A stretch of 56,207 bases of DNA, taken from Actinomycetota bacterium (GTDB lineage: Bacteria > Actinomycetota > Aquicultoria > Aquicultorales > JAMCWL01). The DNA is taken from contig JAMCWL010000089.1 in the NCBI GenBank assembly GCA_023481285.1, forward strand, positions 1-56,207, in the 5' to 3' direction. Both the position numbers and the translations under genes were made by a program. Under the pieces are notes generated by a model. That model searched no databases. It was not told where the DNA came from and saw nothing but the letters and a program-made list of their open reading frames with translations. Shown in pieces: positions 13-6,964 of the stretch; position 1 is the first letter of the stretch, and every line of letters begins with the position of its first letter.

Positions 13-1227
13 CTATGACGAGTTGCCGATCAAAAACTCGACCTCATTGGCGACCACCTGCCGGTGAATCTCCCGAAAATCCGCCTCGGGGATGATGACC
101 GGCCTCGCGCCTCGCTCGCCGACGATCCTTTCGATCCGGCCGGCGAAACCGGCGTCGCCGCCGCCCGTCGCGATCACCGCCGGCTCCATGCCCATCTCGA
201 CGGCCAGGGTGGTGATTCCCTCCACCAGATCGGCTTCGCCGTAGATCGCGGGACGGCGCCCGAAGAGCACCTTGTGGGCGTCGACCATGGCATCGAGCAG
301 TCGACCTCGCTCGTTCATATAGCGATCCGGAACCGGGCGACCGGTAAGCTCCGTCACCGCCTCGAGAAACCGGTCGGTATTCGCCAGGCCGATCGGCAGC
401 CCGATAACACGCCCCGGGACGCCGTACGATCGCTCGAGAAAGCCAGCGACCGACATCTCCCCGGAGGCCGACCCACCGCACTCGACGGTCGCCAGGGCAT
501 CCGACATGCTCTCGATCTCCTCCACCGCGGTTCCCCCCTCGGGGATCGGCCGGAAGGAGTCGTGCATCGGGGCGTCGAGCGTCTCTGAGACATCGGGAAG
601 GAGCGTGTAGGCAACGCCCGTTCGGTCGAGCAAATCCTTGATATACCTGGCGTCGGCCGGAGAGCAGTCGCCCGGAATCACGTTGATTTTTCCATTGGGG
701 TTCCCGGCCGGCGAGACCAGGCGCTCCACGAGCGATCTGAGCGCGACGCGGAATCCTTCCGACTGGCTTCCCCTATAGCTGGGGGTAGAGACCGGAACAA
801 TATAGGGGACGTTGGTTGCGTTTGTTGCATCGGCTATTTCCTGCTCGAACTCCTTGATAATTCTGGGCACGTCGTCGCCGATCGTCTCGGCTAGGCAGCC
901 CGTGACCACGCCGATGAGCGCCGGTCGGTAGCTCTTGATGACGTTGCGCAAGCCCTGTACCAGGTTGGCCTCCCCGCCGTAGACGGCTCCCTTCTCGCTC
1001 AAGCTGGATGAGGCGACATCGATCGGCTCGTTGAAGTGACCGGCCATATGCCGGCGCATGTAGGTGGCGCACCCCTGGGAGCCGTGGAGAAGCACCATGG
1101 TATCGGCCACCCCTTTCAGGGCGAAGACGGCCCCGATGGGCTCGCACATCTTGCAGGGATTGACGGCTACGACAGCCGGTTTGCTCTCCTCAAGGCGCAA
1201 GGTCTTTTTCCGATAGATCGCGCTCAT
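13..1227 (-). CDS. nifN: FeMo-cofactor scaffold subunit NifN, apparently C-terminally truncated
   Basis: NPCKMCEPIGA, HGSQGCATYMRRH and VTGCLAETIGDD motifs; follows nifE with an ATGA overlap (ATG at 1227). Ends at IGNSS-TAG, earlier than the paralog NifK, which continues about 55 aa past IGNS. Confidence 0.85.
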   Translation of the reverse strand: MSAIYRKKTLRLEESKPAVVAVNPCKMCEPIGAVFALKGVADTMVLLHGSQGCATYMRRHMAGHFNEPIDVASSSLSEKGAVYGGEANLVQGLRNVIKSYRPALIGVVTGCLAETIGDDVPRIIKEFEQEIADATNATNVPYIVPVSTPSYRGSQSEGFRVALRSLVERLVSPAGNPNGKINVIPGDCSPADARYIKDLLDRTGVAYTLLPDVSETLDAPMHDSFRPIPEGGTAVEEIESMSDALATVECGGSASGEMSVAGFLERSYGVPGRVIGLPIGLANTDRFLEAVTELTGRPVPDRYMNERGRLLDAMVDAHKVLFGRRPAIYGEADLVEGITTLAVEMGMEPAVIATGGGDAGFAGRIERIVGERGARPVIIPEADFREIHRQVVANEVEFLIGNSS

Positions 1228-2645
1228 CTTCCATCCCCACGCTCGAAGCGACATTCTTTATCGGCGATGGCCGGCCGGCGGTCGGCGGTTGTAATTTTTC
1301 GATAAGCGGCCCAGACGGGGCTGTTGACGGTAGCGTGCACTTCGCGAGCGAAGTTCAAAAGACCCTCGAATCCTGAGAAGAAGCGCTTCCGCTCGTGGTT
1401 GAAGTCGCAGAAGCCGATCCCCGATTTGTAGGCGATGGGCCGCTCCTTCACCCCACCGACCAAGATATCGACCTCCTGCTCGCCAATGAGCTCCACCAGC
1501 TCGAGGACCCCGGCATCGTCGATGATGACGGCGCCATCCATCGCTTCCGCCCTGATCTCCTCGTAATCCTCCGACTTGCCCGTCTGGCTGCCGGCGACGA
1601 CGACCTCCATCCCGAGATCGCGGAAGGCCTTGATGAGCGAGAGGGTCTTGAAGGCGCCGCCCATGTAGACGGCCGCCCGCTTGCCTTTGAGGACGTCGCG
1701 GTAGAGATCGAGCTCCCTGTCGACGGCCGCCCGCCGTTCTCTACAGAGCTTCCACGCCCGCTTGACCAAGGCCGGCTCATCGAAGAAGCCGGCGATCTTT
1801 ATGAGGGCCTCCTCCGTGTCGTCGAGCCCGAAGAAGCTCACCTTGACGAAGGGAATCCCGTACTTCTTCTGCATCTTCTTGGCGAGATAGGTCATCGACC
1901 CGGCGCACTGGACCGCGTTGAGACCCGCCGTATGGGCCTGCATGATCTCCGCCACCCGGGCGTCTCCGGTGAGCGTCGCCACCACCTCGATGCCAAGCTC
2001 GGCCAGGTAGTTCTTGATCACCCAGAGCTCTCCGGCCAAGTTGAACTCGCCCAGCAGGTTGATCGCGCGGGGAGAGTCCGCGCCGCGGTCGGAACGGCCG
2101 ATAATCTCGAGAAGCGCGTCGCACGCGGCGTGGTAGCCGTCCGCCTTGTTGCCCTTGAAGCCCTCGGACTGGACGGGGACGACGATAGTGCCCGTCTCCT
2201 CCTCGACCCGCTTGCAGACCGCGCGCAGGTCGTCGCCGATGACGCCGACGATGCAGGTCGAGTAGGCGAAGACGGCGGGCGGCCTGTGCTCCTCGATCAA
2301 CCCGCGAAGGGCTTGGTAAAGCTTCTCCTCGCCTCCGAAGATGACGTCCTTCTCCCGCATGTCGGTTGAGAAGCTGTAGCGGTAGGTTTCAGGACCGCTC
2401 GAGAGGCTCCCCCTGATGTCGCAGGTGTAGGCGGCGCATCCGATGGCGCCATGCACCAGGTGGACGGCGTCGGTTATCGGATTGAGTACCACCCGGGCTC
2501 CGTTGTAGACGCAGCCCCGCTGGCTCATCGCCCCGGCGACCGAGTTCACGTCGCAGACGATGTCGGCGTCCCGATCGGCCGTGTCCTTCTTATATATCTG
2601 TCGCCTGCGATCTGAGAGCACCGCGCTCCGTTCGTTCATGGACAC
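1224..2645 (-). CDS. nifE: FeMo-cofactor scaffold subunit NifE
   Basis: MSQRGCVYNGARVVLNPITDAVHLVHGAIGC, STCIVGVIGDD, GEFNLAGE, VQCAGSM and DFNHER motifs; RBS AAGGAGG 8 nt before the GTG. Confidence 0.93.
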   Translation of the reverse strand: MSMNERSAVLSDRRRQIYKKDTADRDADIVCDVNSVAGAMSQRGCVYNGARVVLNPITDAVHLVHGAIGCAAYTCDIRGSLSSGPETYRYSFSTDMREKDVIFGGEEKLYQALRGLIEEHRPPAVFAYSTCIVGVIGDDLRAVCKRVEEETGTIVVPVQSEGFKGNKADGYHAACDALLEIIGRSDRGADSPRAINLLGEFNLAGELWVIKNYLAELGIEVVATLTGDARVAEIMQAHTAGLNAVQCAGSMTYLAKKMQKKYGIPFVKVSFFGLDDTEEALIKIAGFFDEPALVKRAWKLCRERRAAVDRELDLYRDVLKGKRAAVYMGGAFKTLSLIKAFRDLGMEVVVAGSQTGKSEDYEEIRAEAMDGAVIIDDAGVLELVELIGEQEVDILVGGVKERPIAYKSGIGFCDFNHERKRFFSGFEGLLNFAREVHATVNSPVWAAYRKITTADRRPAIADKECRFERGDGR

Positions 2646-2658
2646 CCGCTTAACCTCC

Positions 2659-4017
2659 TTACTGAATCAGCTCAACCAAGTAGTCGGGAGTTCGATCTTC
2701 CTTCCAATCGAGAAGCGTATTGCCGATCCGCTCGACCAGCCAGGCGGTCCCGGCATAGCCGACGACCGGGAAGTGCTGGAGATTCGCCCGATCGGTGATC
2801 GGAAACCCGACGCGGATGAGGGGTATGCCCTCGGATCTCGCAATGTACTTCCCATAGCTGTTGCCGATCAAGAGATCGACCGGGTTCCTCTTAATCAGGC
2901 GGTGGAGCATGAAGAGATCGCTGTCGTCTACCACCGTCGCCTTGGGGGCGATCATCGTGACCGCCGCCTTCCAATCCTTGCTCCTCGTCCCGGTGAGAAC
3001 GTGCTCCGGCTCCATCCCCATGCTTACGCAGAAGCCGGTGAGCGCCTCGGTGACGTCCGGATCCCCGAAGATCGCCACCTTCTTGCCGTACCAGTGGGCG
3101 TGAGCGTCGAGCATCATATCGACCAGGCGCCCCCGCTCCTCCTCAAGCTCTTTGGGAATAGGCTTGCCCATCACCGCGGAGAGCCTCATGAGAAGCGCGT
3201 CGACGTTATCGATGCCTATGGGCACGGGGAGCACTTCGAGCGGCACCTGGAAGTTGGTTGCGAGCGCCATCCCGGCGGCATTGCCCGCCTCCCGGCCCAG
3301 GGCGATCGTCGCCTTGGACGCCCCCATCCGCTCGATCTCCTCGATCTTTGTGCCACCTTCCTGGTAGAGCTTGAGCTCGCCGGTCATCGGAGCATCGATC
3401 ACGCCGGAGACGTCCGGCAGCACGACCACCTCGGTGCCCATGATCTTCAATATCCGCTTGATCTCTCTCGCGTCGCTCGGGCTCACGAAGCCCGGCAGTA
3501 CATTGACAGCCTCCGCAGCCTCGCCGTTCTCGGCGAAGGCATCGACGGCCGCTTTGACCATGTTGGCGAAGCCGGTTATGTGCGAGCCGACGTAACTCGG
3601 CGTGCTTGCGCAGAATACCTTGACATCCTCGGGCAGCTCGCCGGCCCGCCGCATCTCCTCGACGATGCCCGGCACGTCGTCGCCGATGGTCTCCGCCGAG
3701 CAGGTCGTGTGGACTCCTACCACCTCCGGCTTGTAAATGTGAATGAGGTTCTTCAGCGCCATCTTAAGGTTTCCGGAGCCCCCGAAGACGACCTGTCCTT
3801 CGGTGAAAGAGCTTGTTGTCGTGATAATGGGCTCCCTGAAGTGCCTCGATAGATGCATCCTGAGATAGGAGGCGCAGCCCTGCGAGCCGTGACTGTGCGG
3901 CATGCAGCCATGGATCCCCAACGCCGCGTAGACGGCGCCGATGGGCTGGCAGGTCTTGGCCGGGTTGATGGCGAGCGCTTGCCGTTCGATATCGGGACAC
4001 TCAGCTATATCTACCAT
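2659..4017 (-). CDS. nifK: Nitrogenase MoFe protein beta subunit (short N-terminus, Group II/III style)
   Basis: INPAKTCQPIGA, HGSQGC and TTCSAETIGDD carry the three P-cluster Cys; STPSYVGSH and GFPITDR present; RBS AAGGAGG. Confidence 0.95.
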   Translation of the reverse strand: MVDIAECPDIERQALAINPAKTCQPIGAVYAALGIHGCMPHSHGSQGCASYLRMHLSRHFREPIITTTSSFTEGQVVFGGSGNLKMALKNLIHIYKPEVVGVHTTCSAETIGDDVPGIVEEMRRAGELPEDVKVFCASTPSYVGSHITGFANMVKAAVDAFAENGEAAEAVNVLPGFVSPSDAREIKRILKIMGTEVVVLPDVSGVIDAPMTGELKLYQEGGTKIEEIERMGASKATIALGREAGNAAGMALATNFQVPLEVLPVPIGIDNVDALLMRLSAVMGKPIPKELEEERGRLVDMMLDAHAHWYGKKVAIFGDPDVTEALTGFCVSMGMEPEHVLTGTRSKDWKAAVTMIAPKATVVDDSDLFMLHRLIKRNPVDLLIGNSYGKYIARSEGIPLIRVGFPITDRANLQHFPVVGYAGTAWLVERIGNTLLDWKEDRTPDYLVELIQ

Positions 4018-4036: not shown

Positions 4037-4056
4037 TAGGGGACGTTGTTTACTAA
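4037..4056. repeat. Orphan copy of the terminal repeat of the Y1 element at 34.4-35.5 kb, overlapping the nifD stop codon
   Basis: TAGGGGACGTTGTTTACTAA matches 19/20 to the reverse complement of 35459-35478 (TAGGGGACGTTGGTTACTAA). Confidence 0.7.
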
Positions 4057-5699
4057 GTTAACTTTTTCTCATCAGTCGCCACATCGGTTGCCATAGAATC
4101 GACGAGCTCCAGTTCGACCGCCCTTCTCCAGGGCGGGACGACCGCCTTCCAAATGGGGTTGTTGATCGCCATGTCCATATCCCGGGCAAAGTTGACCGCT
4201 CCCTCGAAGGCCGTGTACGGCCCCGAGTAGTCGTACGAGTGAATCTGGCGGGAGGCGACGCCCATCTTCTGAGTGATGTATCGGTCCTTGATCCCGGAGA
4301 GGAAGAGGTCCGGCTTCACGCCCTTCACGAACGCCTCGGTTTCGAAGTGGTTAAGGTCGTCCACCACGAACGCTCCTTCCTTCATGTGGACCATCATGCC
4401 CTCGTAGTCCATCAGGTGATCTGGAAGTGCTTCCTTTAGCTGCTCGATCCGCTCCTCGTCATACGGAGGCTTGGTACCCGGGTCCCGGTCGAAGGAGAGG
4501 TTGTCGATTATCCTATGGTGCGGCGCCTCCTTCATCTCCGGAATGACCCTCCGGCCCTCGTAATCATCGCGATGGGCAAACTGGTAGCCGGCAAGCACCG
4601 TTTCGACTCCCAGATCATTCAAGAGGTCCTGGTAATGATGCGAGCGGGAGCCGCCGGCAAAGACCATGGCTGTCTTGCCCTCAAGGCGCTGTCGGTAGTA
4701 CCCAAACTGGGGCTTTACTAATTCGAGCTCCTCCTCGATGACCTGCTCCGTGTTCTCGTAGATCAGAGGGTCGTTAAAAAACTTGGCCATCTCCCTCAGA
4801 GATTTGATTGTGGCCTCGATCCCGATGTAGTTGACCTTGAGCCAGGGGACGCCGAACTTCTGCTCCATCATCTTATTGCTATAGTTGATGGAGCGATGGC
4901 ACATGAGGATGGAGAGCTTTGCCCGATGGGCCCTCGCAAGATCCTCGAACTTGGAGTCGCCCGTGAAGACGCTGACGACGCGGTATCCTATCTTCTCAAG
5001 CAAGGGCTTGACTACCCAGACGTCGCCCCCGATGTTATACTCGCCGAAGATGTTGACGTCGAAGGGCGTCGGGTCTTCGAGCTCCTGCGTCCCGACCACC
5101 CGGGTGATGAGCGAGTTCGACGCAATGTGGTGGCCCGCCGACTGACTGACCCCCTTGTACCCCTCGCAGCTCACGGGGATCACCGTGACGCCGAGCTCCT
5201 CGGCGGCCTTCTCGCAGACGCTCTTGATATCGTCCCCGATCAGGCCGACCGGGCAGGTGGCGAAGACCCCGATGTACTTCGGCTTGAATATCTCGTAGGC
5301 TTCCCTGATCGCCTGGGCTAGCTTTTTCTCGCCCCCGAAAACGACATCCCGCTCCTGCATGTCCGTCGAGAGGCAGATTTGGTTGAAATGGTCGTAACCC
5401 TCCTCGGGACGAGCGAGGTTTCGCCTCGTGTTCCACGTATAGTAACCGCACCCGATGGGACCATGGGTGATGTGAAGAATATTCTTCACCGGACCAAAGA
5501 CCACGCCTTTGGCACCTGCATACGTTCAGCCGCGGTTGGTCATGATGCCGGGGATGGTGAAGACGTCCGCCTCGATCCTCTGCTCGGGGTCGCTCGGATT
5601 TCTGACGATCATATGCTTGCCACGCTCCCGGCCGACCTTCTTCGGGTAAGCCTCGACTATCTCGTTGATCAGGTTTTCGCGTTCTTCTATGGTTGCCAT
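4053..5699 (-). CDS. nifD: Nitrogenase MoFe protein alpha subunit with an in-frame UGA (probable selenocysteine, residue 58) at the alpha-Cys62 position
   Basis: ORFs 5526-5708 and 4053-5504 are in one frame, reading PGIMTNRG-TGA-TYAGAKGVVFGP. All other ligands are intact: HGPIGC (C88), ATCPVGLIGDD (C154), SQSAGHH (H195), LMCHRS (C275), RQIHSYDY (H442). RBS AAAGGAG 9 nt before ATG 5699; about 548 aa, including a ~50-aa insertion. Confidence 0.93.
5491..5516 (-). promoter_or_regulatory. Bacterial SECIS-like hairpin downstream of the nifD UGA
   Basis: mRNA GG-U(bulge)-GCCAAAGGC-GUG-GUCUUUGGU-CC. The 9-bp upper stem starts 12 nt after the UGA, and the apical loop begins with GU 21 nt after the UGA. 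Confidence 0.75.
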
Positions 5700-5728
5700 G
5701 TCAATCATCTCCTTTCTGTTTGCTTTTT

Positions 5729-5764
5729 GTCCGCCGTCGGCCGTCCGCCGTCCGCCGTCCGCCG
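5729..5764. repeat. Heptamer tandem repeat (GTCCGCC)x5
   Basis: GTCCGCC GTCGGCC GTCCGCC GTCCGCC GTCCGCC, just upstream of the nifD RBS. Confidence 0.9.
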
Positions 5765-5782
5765 CTTTCTAGACGCCAGATC

Positions 5783-5873
5783 GGGCCTTCGGCCCTACGG
5801 GTAGGGCGCGTTCCCCGAACGCGCCGTCGCCATGTTTGCGCCTCAATCGGTCCGTTCGGGGAACGGACCCTAC
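5783..5873. repeat. GTAG-family REP cluster: inverted doublet (REPIN-like) plus one short REP
   Basis: 5801-5826 GTAGGGCGCGTTCCCCGAACGCGCCG; inverted partner 5848-5873 (rc GTAGGGTCCGTTCCCCGAACGGACCG); 5783-5798 rc GTAGGGCCGAAGGCCC. Confidence 0.8.
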
Positions 5874-5923
5874 TACGCTATCTGGTTTCTTGGATTCTCA
5901 GTTCAGACGCTTGAAAGAAATTT

Positions 5924-5961
5924 CCAGGAAACCAAGAGGCCAAGTCGCCAAGACACTAGAG
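5924..5961. repeat. Degenerate octamer tandem repeat (CCAAGxxx) just downstream of the nifH stop
   Basis: CCAGGAAA CCAAGAGG CCAAGTCG CCAAGACA CTAGAG; partly complementary to 5881-5894. Confidence 0.6.
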
Positions 5962-5965
5962 CTTC

Positions 5966-6964
<999 letters not shown>

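What the first reader, a model, noticed from the sequence alone, without database searches (positions are those of the whole stretch)
5526..5528. Probable selenocysteine-ligated nitrogenase P-cluster (UGA at NifD alpha-Cys62)
Seen: the two ORF-track fragments are one frame interrupted by a single TGA in MTNRG-*-TYAGAKGVV, where NifD has the conserved Cys62. All other cluster ligands are intact, the downstream GTG has no RBS, the paralogous site in nifE is TGC, and other genes here use TGA as stop. Established: Cys62 is a terminal ligand of the [8Fe-7S] P-cluster. Inference: Sec is inserted, giving a Se-ligated P-cluster with possibly shifted redox properties and making N2 fixation depend on selenium supply. 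From memory, Sec at this position has been predicted in a few thermophilic/subsurface anaerobes, so it is rare rather than unprecedented. I know of no biochemical characterisation or actinobacterial example. Pipelines would call this gene a pseudogene.
Basis: partly seen in the sequence, partly recalled or inferred. Interest (0 to 1): 0.92.

Follow-up and report, generated by a model that had tools for sequence, protein, structure and literature searches.

The report
Selenocysteine codon in nitrogenase NifD
The nitrogenase alpha-subunit gene of this uncultured actinobacterium has a UGA codon where a cysteine normally holds the enzyme's P-cluster; it is almost certainly read as selenocysteine, a rare substitution first reported in 2013 and seen here in a new bacterial lineage and a new nitrogenase subgroup.

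Summary
nifD lies on the minus strand (4053-5708). It has one in-frame TGA (5526-5528) at the RG-C-xYAG site of P-cluster ligand alpha-Cys62, followed by 490 open codons. Contigs from 4 runs in 3 studies carry the same TGA. The genome, an Aquicultorales (Actinomycetota) MAG, has selD (itself with a Sec codon), selA, selB and tRNA-Sec in one locus. TGA also ends 252 of 1060 long frames, so the code is not reassigned. A hairpin sits 13-38 nt after the UGA, with its loop at +25-27.

Four related genomes carry a TGA at the same site in a different NifD (44% identical). There the downstream dN/dS is 0.018-0.038. I read the codon as Sec (confidence 0.85).

It is not new in kind. Howard et al. 2013 reported alpha-Sec62 in three Group III NifDs, and a 2026 review lists the family.

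What is new:
- This is a Group II NifD, with the 52-residue insertion and nifE plus a nifN-like gene.
- Its NifK has beta-Ser92, not the reported beta-Ala92.
- All 119 close homologues that cover the site have Cys.
- A tree needs at least 3 separate Cys/Sec changes.

Sec incorporation and its chemical effect are untested.

The parts
4053..5708 (-). nifD, Mo-nitrogenase alpha subunit, Group II type. It has 551 codons counted from ATG 5708. The likelier start is ATG 5699, which lies 9 nt after the Shine-Dalgarno AAAGGAG. The stop is TAG at 4053-4055.
   Evidence: TIGR01282 680 bits against a cut-off of 653.55. Full-length match to PDB 9p1x_A (746.7 bits) and C. pasteurianum 4wes_A (602.3 bits), including the roughly 50-residue insertion.
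5526..5528 (-). In-frame UGA, codon 61 (58 from the likelier start), at the position of P-cluster ligand alpha-Cys62 (A. vinelandii numbering). Proposed to be a selenocysteine codon.
   Evidence: Unchanged in contigs of 4 runs from 3 studies. 119 of 119 homologues that cover this column have Cys.
5491..5516 (-). SECIS-like hairpin, nt +13 to +38 counted from the U of UGA. It has a 9-bp stem plus 2 bp beyond a bulged U (+15). The apical loop GUG lies at +25-27 (5504-5502) and is the 'GTG start' of the 483-aa ORF fragment.
   Evidence: 60 nt fold at -21.2 kcal/mol, z -3.34, 0 of 200 shuffles as stable; 28 of 1000 synonymous recodings as stable. Caveat: Cys-bearing homologues L020 and L021 fold a similar hairpin.
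5472..5489 (-). Second small hairpin (+40 to +57), a 7-bp stem with a 4-nt loop. Role unknown.
5709..5715 (-). Shine-Dalgarno AAAGGAG upstream of nifD.
   Evidence: Read from the sequence.
5966..6874 (-). nifH, the nitrogenase Fe protein. The family match begins at residue 32 of the ORF, so the true start is probably further in.
   Evidence: TIGR01287 460.3 bits against a cut-off of 394.35.
2659..4017 (-). nifK, the beta subunit. It carries HGSQGC, i.e. beta-Ser92 next to P-cluster ligand beta-Cys95.
   Evidence: TIGR01286 437.8 bits against a cut-off of 427.3. Motif seen.
1224..2645 (-). nifE. The site paralogous to the nifD TGA is TGC (2511-2513). The gene ends in TGA.
   Evidence: TIGR01283 618.1 bits against a cut-off of 505.1..
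13..1254 (-). nifN-like gene following nifE. It scores below the curated cut-offs of both nifN and nifK.
   Evidence: nifK 285.4 bits (cut-off 427.3) and nifN 239.7 bits (cut-off 326.8).

Best explanation
The UGA at codon 61 of nifD is a selenocysteine codon.

Proposed mechanism:
1. SelB, loaded with Sec-tRNA(Sec), binds the hairpin that starts 13 nt after the UGA, and Sec is inserted.
2. Translation continues for 490 more codons and yields a full-length Group II NifD.
3. In the NifDK tetramer a selenolate replaces the alpha-Cys62 thiolate as a terminal ligand of the [8Fe-7S] P-cluster.

Shown here: the codon is real, the site is the Cys62 site, the Sec machinery is complete, the hairpin exists, the gene and operon are otherwise intact, and the same-site TGA persists under purifying selection in relatives.

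Inferred: actual Sec insertion, Se-Fe ligation, any change in P-cluster chemistry, and selenium dependence of N2 fixation.

By parsimony on the tree the state arose from Cys (TGY to TGA, one base) inside a Cys-bearing Group II clade. It arose separately from the Sec62 NifD of the neighbouring family and from the published Group III cases.
For: (1) There is one in-frame TGA at the Cys62 site, and the ligand motifs are intact.

(2) The TGA is identical in contigs of 4 of 4 runs laid, from 3 studies. Of the 9 variant positions listed in nifD, 7 are synonymous and 2 are conservative (K162R, F149Y).

(3) selD, selA, selB and tRNA-Sec(UCA, 74.9 bits) lie together on contig C20. SelD itself has a TGA at ...AG-U-AAK.... 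Contigs C18 and C20 both fit the bin's tetranucleotide profile (0.982 and 0.992 against a median of 0.981).

(4) TGA ends 252 of 1060 long frames, and nifE ends in TGA, so there is no genome-wide reassignment.

(5) The hairpin spans +13 to +38 with its loop at +25-27. The own selD hairpin loop is at +24-26. The fold has z -3.34 with 0 of 200 shuffles as stable, and 28 of 1000 synonymous recodings are as stable.

(6) In the class, 7 of 48 genomes have a NifD over the TIGR01862 cut-off, and 5 of those 7 have a TGA at this site.

(7) In the other four genomes (Group I-like NifD), dN/dS downstream of the TGA is 0.018-0.038 in the 6 of 10 pairs where it could be computed. Three pairs were saturated and one pair was identical.

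(8) There is precedent: alpha-Sec62 in three species (PMC3760896).
Against: - There is no direct evidence of Sec incorporation. No RNA run was listed, and there are no protein data.
- The hairpin does not discriminate. Cys-bearing homologues L020 and L021 fold a similar one, because the conserved AKGVVFGP coding sequence largely dictates it.
- The synonymous-recoding test gave no signal for the positive control selD (630 of 1000), so it has little power. bSECISearch was not available.
- One relative with the TGA, G006 (97% complete), shows no selA, selD or tRNA-Sec.
- One metagenome copy (L057) has stops about 100 codons after the TGA. Another (L056) has no stable hairpin (z +1.19).
- No close DNA relative of the window's own nifD exists in what I searched, so dN/dS for this gene rests on 9 variant positions only.
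- Apart from selD, nifD and one doubtful DJ-1/PfpI frame, I found no other selenoprotein gene. The Fdh-alpha and FlpD matches have no internal stop.
Confidence: 0.85

Rival explanations
1. A recent nonsense mutation: nifD is a pseudogene and the organism no longer fixes N2 with this enzyme.
For: Gene callers split the gene; P0002 is a 483-aa fragment. G006 has the same-site TGA with no sel genes found. L057 is broken downstream.
Against: The 490 codons after the TGA stay open and nifHDKE plus the nifN-like gene are intact. The TGA is identical in 3 studies. 7 of 9 listed variants are synonymous. The stop falls exactly on a Cys codon that is one base away from TGA. It recurs in relatives with dN/dS of 0.018-0.038 across dS up to about 2.
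Confidence: 0.06
2. The UGA is translated, but not as Sec. It might be read as Cys by a tRNA(Sec)-like tRNA(Cys), or as Trp/Cys by near-cognate read-through.
For: The genome carries a second, Sec-like tRNA (90 nt, 55.1 bits to RF01852) next to a selB paralogue on C60. This is the selC*/selB* arrangement described in PMC5389517 (passages read), some forms of which read UGA as Cys.
Against: That tRNA's anticodon is GCA, not UCA, so it should read UGY, not UGA. A canonical tRNA-Sec(UCA) with selA, selB and selD is present.
Confidence: 0.05
3. Sec is inserted, but the selected function is regulatory. A slow, selenium-dependent decoding step early in nifD would gate NifD synthesis, rather than changing P-cluster chemistry. 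Howard et al. raise this possibility.
For: The codon lies early in the gene (residue 58-61). Howard et al. note that Se terminal ligands hardly shift Fe-S potentials in model compounds.
Against: If gating were all that mattered, any early position would serve. Yet every case found here (the window, the f2 genomes, L056 to L058) and the three Howard reports sit on the same metal-ligand codon.
Confidence: 0.12
4. A sequencing or assembly error produced the TGA.
For: The genome is a MAG of 115 contigs.
Against: Four independent Logan assemblies from 3 studies are identical over the site.
Confidence: 0.01

Closest known systems
alpha-Sec62 NifD of Candidatus Desulforudis audaxviator, Thermodesulfatator indicus and Desulfotomaculum kuznetsovii (Howard et al. 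2013, PMC3760896)
   Same: A stop codon recoded at the very same P-cluster ligand position. selA, selB and selD are present, and a stem-loop follows the codon. It is the only Sec in NifHDK.
   Different: Those three are Group III NifD, lack nifN, and were reported to covary with beta-Ala92. The window's gene is Group II: it has the 52-residue insertion, nifE plus a nifN-like gene, and beta-Ser92. Its host is an actinobacterium. I could not fetch the three sequences, and my DNA patterns did not hit them.
Cys62 Group II MoFe proteins: PDB 9p1x_A, Clostridium pasteurianum 4wes_A/1mio_A, and Carboxydocella sp. JDF658 NifD (P0003, 75% identical)
   Same: Full-length collinear alignment including the insertion. 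The context is identical in P0003 for ten residues before the Cys/Sec site (TIPGIMTNRG) and four after it (TYAG), then differs (AGCKGVVMGP against AGAKGVVFGP).
   Different: They have Cys where the window has TGA.
Sec62 NifD of the neighbouring family in the same order (G004, G006, G009 = Candidatus Aquicultor sp., G011; metagenome contigs L057 and L058)
   Same: Same order of bacteria, a TGA at the same codon, and a Sec locus in 3 of the 4 genomes.
   Different: Only 44-45% identical to the window's NifD. It is a Group I-like type: its nearest proteins are labelled Nitrospirae/Thermodesulfovibrionales at 80-83% identity. Its NifK homologues carry the PF11844 N-terminal extension, and it has a fused nifEN. 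A single Sec clade is rejected (p-AU 3.9e-10).
Sec as a metal ligand in [NiFeSe] hydrogenase and formate dehydrogenase H (recalled; also cited by Howard et al.)
   Same: Selenolate replaces a cysteine thiolate at a metal centre.
   Different: Those are catalytic sites. Here the ligand belongs to an electron-transfer cluster.

Membership tests
Sec-containing NifD (alpha-Sec62 nitrogenase) | The protein is a NifD | tested here: met
   TIGR01282 680 bits against a cut-off of 653.55. Full-length match to solved NifD chains.
Sec-containing NifD (alpha-Sec62 nitrogenase) | In-frame UGA aligned with P-cluster ligand alpha-Cys62 | tested here: met
   Codon 61 aligns with the Cys of 'rgc' in 9p1x_A and 4wes_A, and with Cys in 119 of 119 homologues covering the column.
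Sec-containing NifD (alpha-Sec62 nitrogenase) | selA, selB, selC and selD in the same genome | tested here: met
   All four lie on contig C20 and score over their cut-offs. ARAGORN calls tRNA-SeC with anticodon tca.
Sec-containing NifD (alpha-Sec62 nitrogenase) | Bacterial SECIS stem-loop just downstream of the UGA | tested here: inconclusive
   A hairpin is present at +13 to +38 with a GUG loop at +25-27 and a bulged U, z -3.34. However, similar hairpins occur in Cys homologues, bSECISearch was not run, there is no Rfam model, and the recoding control on selD gave no signal.
Sec-containing NifD (alpha-Sec62 nitrogenase) | Selenium actually present in the polypeptide | not testable with these tools
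   This needs 75Se labelling or mass spectrometry.
The published Sec62 set (Howard Group III) | Group III indel pattern, no nifN, beta-Ala92 | tested here: not met
   The Group II insertion is present. A nifN-like gene is present. NifK has HGSQGC.
Group II Mo-nitrogenase NifD (Howard classification) | Insertion of about 52 residues at A. vinelandii alpha-391 | tested here: met
   Window residues 393-441 have no counterpart in Group I-like NifD. They align with C. pasteurianum and 9p1x chains. The definition was read.
Group II Mo-nitrogenase NifD (Howard classification) | P-cluster and FeMo-co ligand residues conserved | tested here: met
   The motifs GPIGC, ATCPVGLIGDD, MCHRS and IHSYDYSGPY are present. 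Their assignment to Av residue numbers is recalled.

The most novel reading that the evidence does not exclude
Selenocysteine at the P-cluster ligand alpha-62 is not a one-off of odd Group III enzymes. It may be a recurrent, convergent Cys-to-Sec switch that has happened in all three Mo-nitrogenase groups. In one actinobacterial order it seems to have happened twice, on nif clusters acquired separately from different donors: a Carboxydocella-like Group II cluster in this genome and a Nitrospirota-like Group I cluster in the sister family.

The conserved AKGVV(F/W)GP coding sequence already folds into a hairpin at SECIS distance. That would make this particular Cys codon unusually easy to convert in any Sec-competent host. 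The reported need for beta-Ala92 does not hold.
Probability: 0.55. Interest if true: 0.6.

Novelty: new member of a known kind. Interest (0 to 1): 0.45.

Why it matters
What Sec does at the nitrogenase P-cluster has been an open question since 2013. The three published cases sit in Group III enzymes whose N2 fixation was unproven and which lack nifN.

This window shows the same substitution in a canonical Group II nifHDKE plus nifN-like operon. Its close Cys relatives have solved structures (C. pasteurianum 4wes, 9p1x). A clean Sec/Cys comparison therefore becomes feasible in a well-understood scaffold.

Independent recurrence of the substitution argues that it is selected, not accidental. It also ties N2 fixation in these anaerobic Actinomycetota from mine-tailings and sediment samples to selenium supply.

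There is a practical consequence too. Gene callers truncate these genes (P0002, P0124), so surveys of diazotrophs will miss them or call them pseudogenes.

Tried and rejected
- Pseudogene, assembly error and code reassignment were considered and rejected (see the rivals).

- beta-Ala92 covariation. The window's NifK has Ser. In the sister family the QGAQGC motif looked like support at first. It then turned out to be a lineage trait, shared by 112 of 120 close NifK homologues. The matching NifD hits are Cys in 120 of 120, although the NifD and NifK hits are not paired contig by contig. At the 50%-cluster level, 87 of 106 motif-bearing hits have Ser and 9 have Ala. So I dropped covariation as a criterion.

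- Rfam found nothing relevant in 5300-6000: 3 hits, all with E above 1.

- Synonymous-recoding test of hairpin stability. Counts are recodings as stable as the native sequence, out of 1000:
  - window 28
  - f2 genes 36, 211 and 634
  - Cys genes 205 and 886
  - L056 783
  - selD control 630
  The test has low power, so I use it only as a weak hint.

- Own-genome scan for further in-frame TGAs gave 33 candidates, nifD among them. I sent 20 of the other 32 to Pfam. Five had families. Three of these are adjacent genes, one (L059, DJ-1/PfpI) has a domain spanning the TGA, and the rest look like antisense frames. The scan ignores short proteins and TGAs within 30 codons of a start, so it is not a selenoproteome.

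- Fdh-alpha and FlpD matches have no internal stop.

- The look-up of sequencing runs listed no RNA holder, so nothing can be said on expression.

- The two DNA-pattern scans are not a census. Genome contigs gave 3 stretches, all of the f2 type. Metagenome contigs gave 4 stretches, of which L055 is a chance hit. Neither scan hit the three published species, so their motif differs from my pattern.

- P0108 (462 aa, starting just after the site) looked like another split gene. Its first residue is the native Met of VVMGP and the contig is 1759 nt, so it is probably an edge fragment.

- Literature searches:
  - selenocysteine + NifD: 24 papers
  - selenocysteine + P-cluster + nitrogenase: 12 papers
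  - Aquicultor + nitrogenase: 0 papers
  - selenoproteome + nitrogenase: 12 papers
  - Aquicultoria: 6 papers, listing only
  I found no report of Sec62 in Group I or II NifD, or in Actinomycetota. The library omits most subscription journals, and I do not know the organism of the GenBank example in the 2026 review. The supplements of Howard et al. (Tables S1 and S5) were closed, so I could not see their species lists.

Full report
**What is there**

The window begins with a minus-strand operon:
- nifH, 5966-6874
- nifD, 4053-5708
- nifK, 2659-4017
- nifE, 1224-2645
- a nifN-like gene, 13-1254

NCBIfam names the first four over their curated cut-offs. The last scores below both the nifN and the nifK cut-offs.

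The ORF listing breaks nifD into a 60-aa piece and a 483-aa piece in one frame. Read through, the gene has one TGA, at codon 61, in GIMTNRG-U-TYAGAKGVVFGP. After it come 490 open codons ending in TAG.

The Shine-Dalgarno AAAGGAG sits 9 nt before a second ATG at 5699. That is probably the real start, which makes the Sec residue number 58.

The read-through protein aligns over its full length with solved Group II NifD chains: 9p1x_A at 746.7 bits and C. pasteurianum 4wes_A at 602.3 bits. The TGA falls on the Cys of their 'rgc' motif. The other ligand motifs are intact.

**Is the TGA real?**

Logan contigs from 4 of 4 runs laid carry the stretch with no differing letter at 5526-5528. The runs come from three studies: mine tailings 2019, sediment 2022 and mine drainage 2020. 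One study may be the MAG's own source, and contigs are not raw reads. Even so, an assembly slip is excluded.

Nine variant positions were listed inside nifD. Seven are synonymous and two are conservative.

**Can the organism read UGA as Sec?**

The genome is a MAG of 2.17 Mb in 115 contigs, 92% complete. It has selD, selA, selB and a tRNA-Sec (UCA) side by side on contig C20. SelD itself has an in-frame TGA at AG-U-AAK.

The nif contig and the sel contig both fit the bin's tetranucleotide profile.

TGA is also an ordinary stop: 252 of 1060 long frames end in it, nifE among them.

**The hairpin**

Thirteen nucleotides after the U of UGA a hairpin begins. It has a 9-bp stem plus 2 bp beyond a bulged U, and a GUG loop at +25-27. 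That loop is the 'GTG start' of the ORF fragment.

The 60 nt after the UGA fold at -21.2 kcal/mol, with z -3.34 and 0 of 200 shuffles as stable. The genome's own selD has its loop at +24-26.

This evidence is only moderate, for three reasons:
- The two Cys-bearing relatives for which I had DNA fold a similar hairpin, because AKGVVFGP largely dictates it.
- In a synonymous-recoding test the window is more stable than 972 of 1000 recodings, but the selD control shows nothing.
- Rfam has no model for it.

**Relatives**

One genome of the same order is titled Candidatus Aquicultor sp., which is Actinomycetota, class Aquicultoria.

Of 48 class genomes (G000 included), 7 have a NifD over the TIGR01862 cut-off. 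Five of those 7 have a TGA at this codon: G000, G004, G006, G009 and G011. G008 and G025 have TGT.

The four other TGA genes are only 44-45% identical to the window's. They are a different kind of NifD:
- Their nearest proteins are labelled Nitrospirae/Thermodesulfovibrionales (80-83% identity), with Paenibacillus and Frankia at about 68%.
- Their NifK homologues carry the Group I N-terminal extension domain.
- nifE and nifN are fused.

Among these genes, dN/dS downstream of the TGA is 0.018-0.038 in the 6 of 10 pairs where it could be computed, with dS from 0.27 to about 2. Three pairs were saturated and one pair was identical. Upstream it is 0.063-0.081. So the TGA has been kept through long divergence in a gene under strong purifying selection.

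On the Sec machinery: selA is found in 11 of 13 genomes of the order. Three of the four TGA relatives have tRNA-Sec and a Sec-containing selD. G006 (97% complete) shows none of selA, selD or tRNA-Sec. That counts against the reading unless its single sel locus is simply unassembled.

**Independent origins**

The window's closest proteins are full-length, Cys-bearing Group II NifDs, such as Carboxydocella sp. at 75% identity and a Clostridiales MAG at 73%. Of 121 aligned rows, 119 have Cys at the column. The other 2 rows start after the site; one of them is the window's own truncated call.

For the other family's NifD, 120 of 121 rows have Cys and 1 is a truncated call.

I built a 77-row tree (quick IQ-TREE, LG+G4, NifE as outgroup). 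It places:
- the window in a starred 6-row clade of Cys proteins;
- the other family in a starred 5-row clade beside Cys proteins;
- a metagenome fragment (L056: nifH-nifI1-nifI2-nifD with the same TGA) near a Thermosulfuriphilus protein.

At least 3 changes of state are needed. L056 is short and on a long branch.

Holding the window and the other family together costs 548.8 log-likelihood units, p-AU 3.9e-10. The group was named after I had seen the tree.

The three published Sec62 genes are Group III, and I could not fetch them.

**What is known**

Howard et al. 2013 (PMC3760896; section 13 read in full, other passages by search) reported alpha-Sec62 in Ca. Desulforudis audaxviator, Thermodesulfatator indicus and Desulfotomaculum kuznetsovii. 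All three are Group III, all lack nifN, and none was proven to fix N2. The authors reported covariation with beta-Ala92.

A 2026 Chem Rev review repeats this (one passage). [quoted passage not shown]

So the kind is known. The new points are the host phylum, the Group II scaffold with nifE and a nifN-like gene, and beta-Ser92 (HGSQGC).

The beta-Ala92 link does not hold in the sister family either. QGAQGC is shared by 112 of 120 close NifK homologues, from a clade whose NifD hits are all Cys.

**Verdict**

My confidence that the codon is read as Sec is 0.85. I file it as a new member of a known kind.

Its value lies in two things: it shows that the Cys62-to-Sec switch recurs across nitrogenase groups, and it offers a canonical Group II context for experiments.

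Noticed in passing
own genome G000:C60:11501-12856 (locus L012, tRNA at 1499-1588): There is a second, Sec-like tRNA: 90 nt, an 8-bp acceptor stem, 55.1 bits to RF01852. ARAGORN calls it tRNA-Cys with anticodon GCA. It sits just upstream of a selB paralogue that matches only positions 1-359 of the SelB model. This is the selC*/selB* arrangement that Mukai et al. (PMC5389517) described mainly in deltaproteobacteria, here found in an Aquicultorales actinobacterium. G008 also has a second weak tRNA-Sec-like hit (48.9 bits).
   Followed up: partly
own genome G000:C39:37055-37678 (locus L059): This is a DJ-1/PfpI-family frame (Pfam domain over residues 36-186, 81.6 bits) with an in-frame TGA at codon 55, inside the domain. 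It could be a further selenoprotein or a broken gene. No stable hairpin follows the TGA (z +0.19).
   Followed up: partly
window 5720-5760 (nifH-nifD spacer): A tandem heptamer repeat (about five copies) lies just upstream of the nifD ribosome-binding site. Short copies occur on contigs C96, C60 and C40. Contig depth in two runs rises about four-fold over 5649-5842. Two GC-rich hairpins follow the nifH stop (5795-5880).
   Followed up: partly
loci L020 (G025), L021 (G008), L022-L025, and the window: Genomes of this one class carry nif clusters of at least three different origins: Carboxydocella-like Group II, two other Group II lineages, and Nitrospirota-like Group I with a fused nifEN. This points to repeated horizontal acquisition of nif in Aquicultoria.
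   Followed up: partly
L056 (metagenome contig, 2495-2497): A low-GC nifH-nifI1-nifI2-nifD cluster from another organism has a TGA at the same Cys62 codon. No stable hairpin follows it (z +1.19), and the contig ends 42 codons later.
   Followed up: partly
L057 (metagenome contig, about 195-700): This f2-type nifD has the TGA, but its frame closes about 100 codons later, at the ECPVG motif. It is either a broken copy or a misassembly.
   Followed up: no
G006 (same order, 97% complete): This genome keeps the TGA in a nifD under purifying selection, yet no selA, selD or tRNA-Sec was found in the assembly.
   Followed up: partly
own genome G000:C74:5174-5968 (locus L081): The only nifB-like match scores 246 bits, below the 343.65 cut-off, and covers only positions 4-277 of 441. 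It is a short NifB without the C-terminal domain. The nif cluster in the window runs into the contig start, so further nif genes may be unassembled.
   Followed up: no
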